A DNA stretch of 26,024 bases from a phage, in assembly GCA_012702815.1 (NCBI GenBank), contig GCA_012702815.1_3927.1; one strand, given 5' to 3'. Each line of letters starts with the position of its first letter. Position 1 is the first letter of the stretch. This document shows, piece after piece, positions 5,342 to 6,902 of this stretch. Position numbers and translations under genes: made by a program. The notes under the pieces were generated by a model. It did not search any database, had not been told where the DNA came from, and worked only from the letters and a program-made list of their open reading frames with translations.

Positions 5342-5500
5342 CACTTAAGAGTCTTTCTAAGAGGGTTTTTAAGTAATGTGATGTTTGGTTTGGTGTGGTC
5401 AGGTAATGTGATGTCTGGTTTAGTGCGGTGATGTGCGGTCCGGTAAGGTCCGGTGCGGTAAAGTGCGGGTAGTTAGTCTCAGCTACATTAAAATGAGACT
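5342..5500 (+). repeat. composite repeat module A1 (type-1 header + 19 phased pentamers + hairpin)
   Basis: Header CACTTAAGAGTCTTTCTAAGAGGGTTTTTAAGT (5342-5374); NGTNN pentamers in unbroken 5-nt phase 5377-5471; hairpin AGTCTCA / TGAGACT with loop GCTACATTAAAA (5475-5500), followed by TACC TTTTT. Confidence 0.8.
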
Positions 5501-5504
5501 TACC

Positions 5505-5633
5505 TTTTTAAAAGGTCTTTAAGAGGGTCTTTTAATAAGGTGCTGTATGGTAAGGTGATGTCTGGTGTGGTAGGGTGAGGTTAAGTGAGGTGAGGTATGG
5601 GTGGATGGTAGTAGCCACGTTAAAAATCTACCA
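5505..5633 (+). repeat. composite repeat module A2 (type-2 header + 12 phased pentamers + hairpin)
   Basis: Header TTTTTAAAAGGTCTTTAAGAGGGTCTTTTAATAAGGT (5505-5541); phased pentamers 5539-5598; hairpin TGGTAG / CTACCA with 16-nt loop TAGCCACGTTAAAAAT (5606-5633). A degenerate third header copy follows at about 5642-5668. Confidence 0.8.
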
Positions 5634-5708
5634 AGTTTCTAAAGAGTCTTCTGTTGAGGGTTCTTTACAAACAACTTAACAATCAACTAAAGTGTGGAGC
5701 TAAATGCT

Positions 5709-6296
5709 ATGAAACTGTTAAATATCAAAATCACTGGTACTCGTCCTTTCCTGAGCCATAACGATACACTGTCAGACCCATTAAACCCTCTGACTAAATA
5801 TCACAAGTCTCTGTCCAGTAAACGTAAAAAGACTGACGAAGACTATGCGCTCTTAGCAGAAAGCCAACTGGTAACTTCTTGTTACTACGATGAGCAACTA
5901 GGTTTTGTTATGAACGGTGAGATGATTGAGGCTTGCATCAAGTCTGGTGCGAAACTCAACAAACTTGGTAAGGTAATTGACCGAGCCATTATGCTGACAG
6001 ATGTAGTCTTCCCAATGACTATCAAGAACTGTCCAGCAAACCCACAAGAACTTGCTAAGAATCCAGACTTCATCTATGCTAAGTCTGTTAAGATTGGTAC
6101 AGCACGAGTTATGAGCTACCGTCCAATCTTCCGTGACTGGTCTGTAGAGTTTGGATTGATGTTCGATGAAGAGCAAATCACCAAAGAGGAGCTTCTAATG
6201 GTTCTTGAAAATGCTGGTAACCTTTGTGGTGTAGGTGATTGGCGTCCACGCTTTGGTCGTTTTTCTGTAGAAGTTATTTCAGAAGGTAACGTTTAA
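5709..6296 (+). CDS. hypothetical protein (first gene of repeat-bracketed cassette)
   Basis: ORF 5694..6296 (GTG); ATG 5709 preferred, with GTGGAG 9 nt upstream. No recognisable motif. Confidence 0.6.
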
Positions 6297-6298
6297 TT

Positions 6299-6739
6299 AT
6301 GAATACAAAAGCATTAGCAGCAAAGTTTAGTTACGGTGACACTGTATCACACTCTGAGATGGACACCTTCTTAGGTATTGTGAAGCCAACTTATCAAGGT
6401 GACATTGTTAAGTACGAAGATGAAATGAAGGCTTATGCGCTTACACGTCTAAACCGACTTGAAAAGTTTATTGAAAAACTTCTTAAAGAAGAGAAGATTT
6501 ATCTGGTTGCTTCAATGGGTGTTGGTTATCGTGTGGTTGAACCTAAGCATCAAGCAACTATTGCAAAACGCAAAATGTCTGGTAAGATTGGTCGTGCTTT
6601 AAAGCAAGCCACTCAAGCGATTGAGAATGTGAACACTATGGCACTTAGTCATCAAGAACGTTCACGACTGATTGAACAGCAAAATCACTTAGCTGCTATG
6701 AAAGCTAATATTAACAAGCAACGCAGAAAACCTTTCTAA
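6299..6739 (+). CDS. hypothetical protein (second gene of repeat-bracketed cassette)
   Basis: Starts 2 nt after the upstream stop; followed by an intrinsic terminator at 6751-6773. Lys/Arg-rich C-terminus. Confidence 0.6.
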   Translation: MNTKALAAKFSYGDTVSHSEMDTFLGIVKPTYQGDIVKYEDEMKAYALTRLNRLEKFIEKLLKEEKIYLVASMGVGYRVVEPKHQATIAKRKMSGKIGRALKQATQAIENVNTMALSHQERSRLIEQQNHLAAMKANINKQRRKPF

Positions 6740-6750
6740 GTTGACTAGGT

Positions 6751-6773
6751 AGCCTCTTCGGAGGCTCCTTTTT
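6751..6773 (+). terminator. intrinsic terminator after the two-gene cassette
   Basis: Stem AGCCTC / GAGGCT with TTCG tetraloop (6751-6766), then CC and TTTTT (6769-6773). Confidence 0.6.
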
Positions 6774-6902
6774 AAAAGGTCTTTAAAGAGGGTCTTTTAA
6801 TAAGGTAAGGCACGGTTATGTCAGGTATGGTACGGTACGGTTAGGTAAGGTGAGGCGGAGTAAGGTATGGGTAGTTAATCGGAGCTACATTAAAATTCGA
6901 TT
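6769..6902 (+). repeat. composite repeat module B1 (type-2 header + phased pentamers + hairpin)
   Basis: Header matches A2 apart from a single 1-nt indel (6769-6806); pentamers 6804-6868; hairpin AATCGGA / TTCGATT with the same loop as A1, GCTACATTAAAA (6877-6902). Confidence 0.8.

What the first reader, a model, noticed from the sequence alone, without database searches (positions are those of the whole stretch)
5475..6902. Type-1 hairpin: identical 12-nt loop with compensatory stem changes between copies
A1 (5475-5500) has stem AGTCTCA / TGAGACT and B1 (6877-6902) has stem AATCGGA / TTCGATT, both around the identical loop GCTACATTAAAA and both preceded by GGGTAGTT. Three stem positions differ between copies: two are fully compensated (G-C to A-T, T-A to G-C) and the third becomes a G-T pair, which is a G-U wobble in RNA. 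Co-variation with a conserved loop is the classic signature of a selected secondary structure with the loop as the recognition surface, and the wobble favours RNA-level function.
Basis: seen in the sequence. Interest (0 to 1): 0.75.

Follow-up and report, generated by a model that had tools for sequence, protein, structure and literature searches.

The report
3' tail of VIPR guide RNAs
The two covarying hairpins are real, but they are the conserved 3' end structures (hairpin plus pseudoknot) of two guide RNAs of a phage-encoded VIPR RNA-guided DNA-silencing system, which two 2026 preprints already describe.

Summary
A1 (5475-5500) and B1 (6877-6902) are hairpins with different, compensating stems, an identical 12-nt "loop" and the same GGGTAGTT leader.

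They are not isolated elements. The window comes from a Felix O1-like myovirus, and this locus is a type II VIPR system:
- vipr is at 5709-6296 and is 191/195 identical to the solved SUSP1 Vipr protein (PDB 36pp).
- vap1 is at 6299-6739.
- Four vrRNA genes flank these two genes, two on each side. Each has a leader hairpin, 12-19 GGYNN pentamers and a 35-nt 3' tail.

A1 and B1 are the tails of vrRNA-1 and vrRNA-3. The 5' half of the "loop" (CTAC) pairs with the upstream GTAG to form a pseudoknot. This pairing covaries across the four tail types (GTAG/CTAC, GTGG/CCAC, AAGG/CCTT).

B1 folds only on the + strand. Both points support an RNA-level structure.

Using the published one-nucleotide-skip rule, three of the four guides match a satellite-like Escherichia element.

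The published work already reports the tail, its covariation and the cryo-EM pseudoknot, so this is not new.

Side observation: Felix O1 itself lacks vipr but keeps one vrRNA, and its guide matches vipr.

The parts
5281..5308 (+). P1, a sigma-70-like promoter (TTGACA-16-TATACT) upstream of vrRNA-1
   Evidence: 11 of 12 consensus positions. Conserved in relatives. Activity was not tested.
5342..5375 (+). Leader hairpin X1 preceding vrRNA-1. The stem is rich in G.U pairs.
   Evidence: -10.3 kcal/mol on the + strand (z -3.2) against -7.2 on the - strand.
5372..5466 (+). vrRNA-1 repeat tract: 19 GGYNN pentamers in one phase. It contains an internal duplication of about 30 nt.
   Evidence: The pentamer profile over 72 arrays is G86% G98% T92% N N.
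Hairpin 5475-5481/5494-5500. Pseudoknot 5469-5472 with 5483-5486.
   Evidence: covariance model 53.8 bits. Identical to the tails of two SUSP1 downstream vrRNAs.
5503..5540 (+). Leader hairpin X2 preceding vrRNA-2
   Evidence: -14.2 kcal/mol on the + strand (z -3.6) against -8.5 on the - strand.
5539..5598 (+). vrRNA-2 repeat tract: 12 pentamers
   Evidence: The guide matches 21 of 24 positions at L152:4915, in frame, with the skipped base at the codon wobble position.
5599..5633 (+). vrRNA-2 3' tail, type 2a. Stem TGGTAG/CTACCA. Pseudoknot GTGG/CCAC.
   Evidence: 52.5 bits. Same tail type as the vrRNA upstream of vipr in SUSP1. That vrRNA is presumably the vrRNA1 whose 3' pseudoknot was resolved by cryo-EM.
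5635..5672 (+). Hairpin X3, between vrRNA-2 and vipr
   Evidence: -12.3 kcal/mol on the + strand (z -2.8).
5709..6296 (+). vipr, encoding the RAMP-like guide-binding protein (195 aa)
   Evidence: 191/195 identical to PDB 36pp_D 'SUSP1 Vipr protein' (E 6e-128). The GGY-contact residues H17, E71, M72, R138, C173, D177, W178 and R179 are all present.
6299..6739 (+). vap1, the vipr-accessory gene (146 aa)
   Evidence: 99.3% identical to the gene directly downstream of vipr in phiSUSP1. The paper describes vap1 in the SUSP1 operon.
6751..6774 (+). Intrinsic terminator-like hairpin followed by a T run, after vap1
6767..6805 (+). Leader hairpin X2' preceding vrRNA-3
   Evidence: -12.3 kcal/mol on the + strand against -7.1 on the - strand.
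6804..6868 (+). vrRNA-3 repeat tract: 13 pentamers
   Evidence: The 10-NN guide pattern has exact hits only in L152 and L153. Over the whole guide, 23 of 26 positions match.
Hairpin 6877-6883/6896-6902. Pseudoknot 6871-6874 with 6885-6888.
   Evidence: 55.4 bits.
6907..6939 (+). Leader hairpin X1' preceding vrRNA-4
   Evidence: -13.2 kcal/mol on the + strand (z -4.6) against -5.9 on the - strand.
6936..7005 (+). vrRNA-4 repeat tract: 14 pentamers
   Evidence: The guide matches 22-23 of 28 positions at L152:3644 and L153:3819, against a shuffle maximum of 19-20.
7006..7040 (+). vrRNA-4 3' tail, type 2b. Stem TGGCAG/CTGCCA. Pseudoknot AAGG/CCTT.
   Evidence: 42.8 bits.
7059..7087 (+). P2, a sigma-70-like promoter for the downstream genes
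   Evidence: 10 of 12 consensus positions.

Best explanation
A1 and B1 are the 3' 'tails' of two of the four VIPR guide RNAs (vrRNAs) encoded around the vipr-vap1 gene pair of this Felix O1-like phage.

Organisation of each vrRNA:
- A single-stranded tract of GGYNN pentamers, followed by a 35-nt tail.
- The tail folds into a 7-bp hairpin, plus a 4-5-bp second helix between the GGGTAGTT leader and the 5' half of the hairpin loop. Together these make an H-type pseudoknot.

Shown for the 98%-identical SUSP1 system:
- One Vipr protomer binds each pentamer. It sequesters GGY and presents NN.
- The NN dinucleotides read double-stranded DNA with one base skipped per repeat, and this silences transcription.

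Inferred for this window: the tail marks the 3' boundary and register of the Vipr filament and stabilises the RNA's 3' end.
- That would explain why stems may change only in compensating pairs.
- It would also explain why the leader, the CUAC segment and the A-rich remainder of the loop stay fixed. An A-rich loop 3 lying along a pseudoknot helix is my own structural inference.

A1 and B1 differ because they belong to two paralogous tail types. Their guides differ, and at least the B1 guide is aimed at a satellite-like Escherichia element.
For: Protein identity: Vipr is 191/195 identical to PDB 36pp_D. vap1 is 99.3% and Vipr 97.9% identical to the phiSUSP1 genes. The GGY-contact residues are conserved.

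Repeat tracts: there are four in-phase arrays of 12-19 GGYNN pentamers. The profile is GG(T/C)NN with free NN over 72 arrays. In the whole genome of the nearest relative, such arrays occur only at this locus.

Tail structure:
- In-register alignment of 16 distinct tails.
- 92.6% of cells are paired, against 28-44% when the 3' partners are slid.
- 9 of 11 pairs change on both sides, and the pseudoknot helix is 100% paired.
- G-C, G.U and A-U all occur at one stem position.
- Folding is asymmetric between the strands.
- The covariance model finds only these tails, one tail in the satellite-like locus L152, and a weak match in L026, in 846 kb searched.

Literature:
- sRNA-seq in SUSP1 detects vrRNAs of about 100 nt that co-purify with Vipr.
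- The tail is reported with a hairpin, a pseudoknot and compensatory changes.
- Cryo-EM resolves the terminal pseudoknot capping the 3' end.

Function here:
- Exact 10-NN hits for the vrRNA-3 guide are found only in two homologous Escherichia elements.
- Guides 2, 3 and 4 score 21/24, 23/26 and 22-23/28, against shuffle maxima of 18-20.
- About 27 of 67 guides from this clade match the same elements at 85% or better.
- L152 carries a serine recombinase, a tape-measure-like gene, a close homologue of a Felix-O1-like structural gene, and its own vrRNA.
Against: - There are no expression or binding data for this phage. Everything rests on homology to SUSP1.
- The solved pseudoknot comes from the construct carrying the vrRNA upstream of vipr, which has a type 2a tail in SUSP1. 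For the type 1 tails, the subject of this finding, the pseudoknot rests on covariation and in-register homology only.
- The 16 aligned tails fall into just four paralogous classes, so the number of independent compensatory events is small.
- vrRNA-1, which carries A1, has 19 repeats, outside the published range of 9-16. No significant target was found for it.
- vrRNA-3 and vrRNA-4 lie downstream of a terminator-like hairpin. Their transcription needs read-through or a promoter I did not detect.
- What the tail does mechanistically (register, nucleation or protection) is not established in the texts I read.
Confidence: 0.93

Rival explanations
1. A simple protein- or RNA-binding hairpin whose 12-nt loop is an unpaired recognition surface. 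It would be unrelated to the flanking repeats.
For: The loop is nearly invariant within type 1 copies. Minimum-free-energy folding without pseudoknots leaves it open.
Against: Across the four tail types, loop columns 17-20 covary with leader columns 3-6: GTAG/CTAC, GTGG/CCAC and AAGG/CCTT, with 100% pairing. The hairpin always directly follows a GGYNN array. The published SUSP1 model and cryo-EM show a pseudoknot.
Confidence: 0.04
2. An intrinsic transcription terminator or a generic 3' stability hairpin for the upstream gene.
For: A1 can be extended by GGUA/UACC and is followed by UUUUU.
Against: B1 has no U tract. The terminator scan flags neither hairpin and finds only 6751-6766. The 12-nt loop and AT-rich stem are atypical for a terminator. 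The U run after A1 belongs to the stem of the next leader hairpin.
Confidence: 0.02
3. A DNA-level element, such as a replication origin or R-loop zone, an array of primase sites, iterons, or a packaging or terminus signal, with the hairpins extruded from single-stranded DNA.
For: The locus is unique in the genome, lies next to replication genes, and has a G-rich non-template strand downstream of a strong promoter. G.T pairs are tolerated in DNA hairpins.
Against: The copy number of units ranges from 0 to 5 among close relatives. Genome ends of a Felix O1-like phage map elsewhere: UAB_Phi87 has 608-bp terminal repeats at ends that lie far from this locus in the gene order. Arrays are linked to Vipr homologues in unrelated viral contigs. 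Guide-to-target matches follow the RNA-guide rule.
Confidence: 0.01

Closest known systems
3' tail (hairpin plus pseudoknot) of SUSP1-clade type II VIPR vrRNAs (bioRxiv 10.64898/2026.04.26.720920 and 10.64898/2026.04.26.720927)
   Same: - The Vipr and vap1 proteins are the same (98-99% identity).
- The GGY/NN repeat tract is the same kind.
- The type 1a tail sequence is identical to that of two SUSP1 downstream vrRNAs.
- The hairpin plus pseudoknot topology is the same.
- The targets are the same kind of satellite-like Escherichia element.
   Different: - The layout here is 2 vrRNAs upstream and 2 downstream. The paper reports 1 and 3 for SUSP1.
- The guides (NN) differ.
- vrRNA-1 has 19 repeats.
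- B1 is the type 1b stem variant with a G.U pair.
- These are differences between members, not differences in kind.
Repeat-derived handle of Class 1 CRISPR crRNAs
   Same: A conserved structured segment caps a variable guide bound by a filament of RAMP-fold subunits. The paper itself draws this parallel.
   Different: There is no CRISPR array, no cas genes and no Rfam CRISPR match. The guide is non-contiguous, with 2 of every 5 nt used. The cap is a pseudoknot. No processing nuclease is known.
TRAP-binding RNA of Bacillus: 11 (G/U)AG triplets separated by 2-3-nt spacers (from my own knowledge)
   Same: A conserved triplet plus a free 2-nt spacer, read one unit per protein subunit on single-stranded RNA. 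This resemblance is what first suggested an oligomeric RNA-binding protein.
   Different: TRAP is a closed ring that regulates attenuation, and its spacers carry no information. Here the spacers are the guide and the protein forms an open helical filament on DNA.
PeSL (promoter-early stem-loop) cassettes of T4-type phages (from my own knowledge)
   Same: Repeated intergenic regulatory units flank a small gene cassette that is present or absent among close relatives.
   Different: PeSLs are promoter plus stem-loop recombination modules with no guide function. Here the repeats are functional RNA genes.

Membership tests
Type II VIPR system (SUSP1 clade) | A Vipr protein, a minimal RAMP with RRM core, G-loop and thumb | tested here: met
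   191/195 identical to PDB 36pp_D 'SUSP1 Vipr protein' over its full length. The published GGY-contact residues are all present.
Type II VIPR system (SUSP1 clade) | A vap accessory gene next to vipr | tested here: met
   Window 6299-6739 lies directly downstream of vipr. It is 99.3% identical to the corresponding SUSP1 gene.
Type II VIPR system (SUSP1 clade) | vrRNA genes made of 9-16 tandem pentamers with conserved GGY and hypervariable NN | tested here: met
   Four arrays of 19, 12, 13 and 14 pentamers, each in a single phase. The profile is G86/G98/T92(C8)/N/N. One array exceeds the published range.
Type II VIPR system (SUSP1 clade) | A conserved 3' tail with a hairpin and a pseudoknot | tested here: met
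   Covariation counts: both helices are supported and slid registers fail. Covariance-model hits fall at all four predicted tails.
Type II VIPR system (SUSP1 clade) | Guides match natural DNA targets under the one-nucleotide-skip rule | tested here: met
   Guides 2, 3 and 4 match the satellite-like loci L152 and L153 well above shuffled controls. For guide 2 the skipped base is at the codon wobble position. Guide 1 has no significant match.
Type II VIPR system (SUSP1 clade) | vrRNAs expressed as RNAs of about 100 nt that co-purify with Vipr and silence transcription | not testable with these tools
   Shown for SUSP1 only.
Intrinsic (Rho-independent) terminator | A G+C-rich stem with a short loop, immediately followed by a U tract | tested here: not met
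   The scan flags only 6751-6766. B1 has no U tract, and both loops are 12 nt.
Any Rfam RNA family | A match at the family's gathering score | tested here: not met
   No matches in the whole window.

The most novel reading that the evidence does not exclude
About half of Felix O1-like phages, including Felix O1 itself, have lost or never had vipr and vap1, yet they keep 1-2 intact vrRNA units at this locus.

The single Felix O1 guide matches the vipr coding sequence of VIPR-carrying relatives. In this window the match is at 6174-6205, with 21 of 22 positions matching and the skipped base at the codon wobble position.

The most novel reading still open is that these 'orphan' vrRNAs are weapons of vipr-less phages. 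During co-infection they would load a rival's Vipr protein and turn it against the rival's own vipr gene, or against shared satellites.

The published text mentions satellites that carry their own vrRNAs, and vrRNAs that target other VIPR systems. In the main text I could search (terms 'orphan', 'Felix', 'standalone', 'without vipr') I found no mention of vipr-less helper-type phages carrying anti-vipr guides.
Probability: 0.35. Interest if true: 0.65.

Novelty: already known. Interest (0 to 1): 0.3.

Why it matters
The finding shows that reading raw sequence alone can flag a genuine functional RNA: the capping structure of a newly described class of guide RNAs. The element, its covariation and its three-dimensional pseudoknot were published in 2026 for a phage whose system is 98% identical, so the finding adds no new kind of biology.

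Its practical value is in annotation:
- This window, like its nearest database relative, whose public record calls both genes hypothetical and shows no RNA gene at this locus, carries a complete VIPR locus.
- About 118 Ounavirinae records carry vipr.
- About 110 more records carry vrRNA units without vipr.
- The guide-to-target matches found here point to a specific satellite-like element as this phage's competitor.

Tried and rejected
1. Rfam at gathering thresholds found nothing.

2. Genome terminus or packaging signal. I suspected this because some database records start inside the locus. I rejected it for three reasons:
   - The 'repeat_region' annotations only mark the tandem array.
   - Experimentally mapped ends of UAB_Phi87 lie elsewhere.
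   - Most records place the locus mid-genome.

3. Origin of replication, R-loop zone, primase-site array, G-quadruplex array, pause-site array, Chi-like sites and a ribosome-binding decoy. I considered these from the GGT periodicity. I dropped them once the arrays proved to be linked to Vipr homologues and the protein matched PDB 36pp.

4. Pfam and PHROGs scans of neighbouring proteins gave only 'unknown function' and one HTH regulator.

5. Target scans that included the last, conserved pentamer (GGTAT) found nothing. Trimming that pentamer gave the hits.

6. No significant target was found for the 19-repeat vrRNA-1. Only its 5' ten NN match, 18 of 20 at L153:4897.

7. The leader hairpins (X boxes) do not pass the sigma-70 promoter scan.

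8. Two literature searches on Felix O1 repeats turned up nothing on this locus.
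Full report
**1. The observation**

The two hairpins exist exactly as described.
- A1 is AGTCTCA / GCTACATTAAAA / TGAGACT at 5475-5500.
- B1 is AATCGGA / GCTACATTAAAA / TTCGATT at 6877-6902.
- Each is preceded by GGGTAGTT.

The composite pattern occurs twice in the window and never in 100 shuffles. As + strand RNA, A1 folds at -12.6 kcal/mol and B1 at -8.1 kcal/mol. On the - strand B1 drops to -2.9 kcal/mol, because the G.U pair becomes a C.A mismatch.

**2. Context**

The window is a Felix O1-like myovirus. 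The locus is 99.6% identical to Escherichia phage vB_EcoM_ASO1B, and 231 phage records match it.

The hairpins are the last part of a composite unit of about 130-160 nt that occurs four times. Two units lie after the DNA ligase gene (5340-5633). Two lie after ORF 6299-6739 (6767-7040).

Each unit has three parts:
- A leader hairpin rich in G.U pairs. These fold at -10 to -14 kcal/mol on the + strand and are clearly weaker on the - strand.
- An array of 12-19 pentamers in a single phase.
- A 35-nt end segment.

Over 72 distinct arrays from relatives, the pentamer profile is G 86%, G 98%, T 92% (otherwise C), N, N. The two 'type 2' end segments (5599-5633 and 7006-7040) align with A1 and B1 without gaps, but have stems TGGTAG/CTACCA and TGGCAG/CTGCCA.

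In the complete genome of the nearest relative, such arrays occur only at this locus.

The number of units varies among relatives:

| Phage | Units |
|---|---|
| Citrobacter phage HP1 | 0 |
| Felix O1 | 1 |
| humlepung | 2 |
| this window | 4 |
| Moogle | 5 |

About half of the relatives lack the two genes that sit between the unit pairs.

**3. Identification**

A scan of IMG/VR for (GGTNN)6GGT returned many unrelated viral contigs with the same kind of degenerate array. Reading two of these contigs showed homologues of the window's ORF 5709-6296 next to the arrays. A local tblastn found such homologues in at least 33 of the retrieved loci.

That ORF is 191/195 identical to PDB 36pp chain D, 'SUSP1 Vipr protein'.

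Two 2026 preprints describe the system, Viral Interference Programmable Repeat (VIPR). For phage SUSP1 they report the following:
- The locus is minimal, with vipr plus vap.
- The vrRNAs are about 100 nt long, made of 9-16 GGY/NN repeats, and co-purify with Vipr.
- One Vipr protomer binds each repeat. It sequesters GGY and presents NN.
- DNA is recognised with one base skipped per repeat, and this represses transcription.
- Each vrRNA has an invariable 3' 'tail' with a hairpin and a pseudoknot, supported by compensatory mutations.

The window's Vipr is 97.9% and its vap1 99.3% identical to the phiSUSP1 genes. Two of the SUSP1 downstream vrRNAs end in exactly the A1 sequence. The published GGY-contact residues are all present.

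**4. Independent test of the structure**

I aligned 16 distinct tails from the window and relatives. I then counted pairs for a hairpin (columns 9-15 with 28-34) plus a pseudoknot helix (columns 3-6 with 17-20).
- 92.6% of cells are paired, against 28-44% when the 3' partners are slid by 1-3 columns.
- 9 of 11 pairs change on both sides.
- The pseudoknot helix is 100% paired. It reads GTAG/CTAC in type 1, GTGG/CCAC in type 2a and AAGG/CCTT in type 2b.
- The wobble position in B1 appears as G-C, G.U and A-U in different phages.

Caveat: the rows fall into four paralogous classes, so the number of independent events is small.

This covered the window, a whole relative genome, about 80 unrelated GGTNN loci and two target loci. 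It found only these matches:
- the four tails, in both the window and the relative genome;
- one tail in the satellite-like locus L152;
- a weak hit in L026.

So this tail type is confined to this clade and its satellite.

The conserved 'loop' is therefore mostly not a free recognition surface. CUAC is paired. The A-rich remainder occupies the loop-3 position of an H-type pseudoknot, which is my inference from general pseudoknot architecture.

**5. Function in this window**

I applied the published rule: NN dinucleotides joined by single skipped bases.

The vrRNA-3 guide, whose tail is B1, has exact 10-NN matches at only one site in IMG/VR and one site in 100,044 reference genomes. The second site is in Escherichia albertii. 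The two sites are homologous.

| Guide | Best match | Shuffle maximum |
|---|---|---|
| 2 | 21/24 | 18 |
| 3 | 23/26 | 19 |
| 4 | 22-23/28 | 19-20 |

The guide-2 site is in frame, with the skipped base at the codon wobble position.

The target locus L152 carries:
- a serine recombinase;
- a tape-measure-like gene;
- a gene of which a 175-residue stretch translates about 93% identical to a Felix-O1-like structural gene;
- its own vrRNA with a type 2a tail.

This fits the 'satellite' described in the paper. About 27 of 67 distinct guides from the clade match these two loci at 85% or better. No target was found for vrRNA-1, which carries A1, has 19 repeats and contains an internal 30-nt duplication.

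**6. Mechanism of the tail: shown and inferred**

Shown for SUSP1:
- The pseudoknot caps the RNA's 3' end beside protomers 8-12.
- Those protomers are the ones ordered in all DNA-unwinding intermediates.
- Two binary complexes can touch at their pseudoknots.

Inferred for this window: the tail fixes the 3' boundary and register of the filament and protects the 3' end. I did not find its precise role stated.

**7. Rivals**

- Terminator: not supported.
- Genome end: excluded by the mapped ends of UAB_Phi87.
- Origin or other DNA-level roles: these do not explain the linkage to Vipr or the guide-target matches.

**8. Novelty**

The element, its covariation and its structure are already published for a system 98% identical to this one. 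This is another member of that clade.

What I did not find in the searchable text:
- the leader hairpins;
- the large set of vipr-less Felix O1-like genomes that retain vrRNA units: 231 records carry the region against 118 with vipr;
- the fact that Felix O1 itself has no vipr or vap anywhere in its 86,155 bp, yet has one vrRNA whose guide matches vipr at window 6174-6205. That match is 21/22 and in frame, and the next best in the window is 14-15/22.

These are leads, not conclusions.

Noticed in passing
L030 2300-2410 (Felix O1); target at window 6174-6205: Felix O1 has no vipr or vap homologue in its whole genome (tblastn at E<=10 gives only noise). It still carries one vrRNA unit with a type 2b tail. 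That guide matches the vipr coding sequence of this window at 21 of 22 positions, in frame, with the skipped base at the codon wobble position. The next best match in the window is 14-15/22.
   Followed up: partly
phage collection: 231 records match window 5274-7131, but only 118 Ounavirinae records encode Vipr: Roughly 110 Felix O1-like genomes keep 1-2 vrRNA units but lack the vipr-vap1 cassette. In the loci held, some of these orphan guides still match the satellite-like element. Examples are L009 at 16/16 and L023 at 18/20. For those two, absence of vipr was checked only within the fetched loci.
   Followed up: partly
window 5342-5375, 5503-5540, 5635-5672, 6767-6805, 6907-6939: Every vrRNA, and also vipr, is preceded by a 12-17-bp hairpin with several G.U pairs and a conserved apical part (GUCUUU..AAGAGGGU). 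The lower stems differ between the X1, X2 and X3 forms. These hairpins fold clearly better on the + strand. They might define vrRNA 5' ends by processing, or act as insulators. I did not find them described in the searchable text of the preprints.
   Followed up: partly
L152 (IMG/VR contig IMGVR_UViG_2579779076_000012) and L153 (Escherichia albertii NBRC 107761, NZ_BBMY01000186.1): A satellite-like Escherichia element is targeted by three of this window's guides. It encodes a serine recombinase, a tape-measure-like protein and a close homologue of a Felix-O1-like structural protein. It also has its own vrRNA with a type 2a tail (- strand; + strand coordinates 425-459). No vipr or vap was found in the parts held.
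   Followed up: partly
window 5372-5466: vrRNA-1 has 19 pentamers, above the published range of 9-16. It contains a duplication of about 30 nt, or six pentamers (TRF, 5373-5429). No significant target was found for the whole guide.
   Followed up: partly
window 7040-7086: A 13-bp inverted repeat (AAATAAGCTATAA ... TTATAGCTTATTT) brackets the -35 hexamer of promoter P2. It looks like an operator. An HTH regulator gene lies at 7722-8021.
   Followed up: no
window 5297-5337; L032 3360-3435: An 8-bp inverted repeat (GGTGAGTA ... TACTCACC) spans the -10 region and start region of promoter P1. In phage HP1, which has no vrRNA units, the equivalent promoter has a different but again complementary pair (CTGACGGGT ... 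ACCCGTCAG).
   Followed up: no
IMG/VR loci L036, L040-L043, L066, L100-L103, L109 and others: Many unrelated viral contigs carry degenerate GGTNN arrays, often several per contig. L036 has six in tandem, and one 189,632-bp contig has at least 8 (five in L043 plus one each in L040-L042). Many have a Vipr homologue nearby. None has the SUSP1-type tail.
   Followed up: partly
L026 1478-1510 (IMG/VR contig of 42 kb): A divergent tail-like sequence (TGGTAGTT TATCTAC GCTACATTAAAA AGATTTT) has the same loop but a poor stem. It is a weak covariance-model hit at 21.9 bits. Its context was not examined.
   Followed up: no
MZ726792.1 (ASO1B) annotation, equivalent to window 5433-5466 and 6905-6949: The public record annotates 'rho-independent terminators' inside a vrRNA repeat tract and over a leader hairpin. 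It labels vipr and vap1 as hypothetical proteins. These annotations are probably wrong in the light of the VIPR assignment.
   Followed up: no
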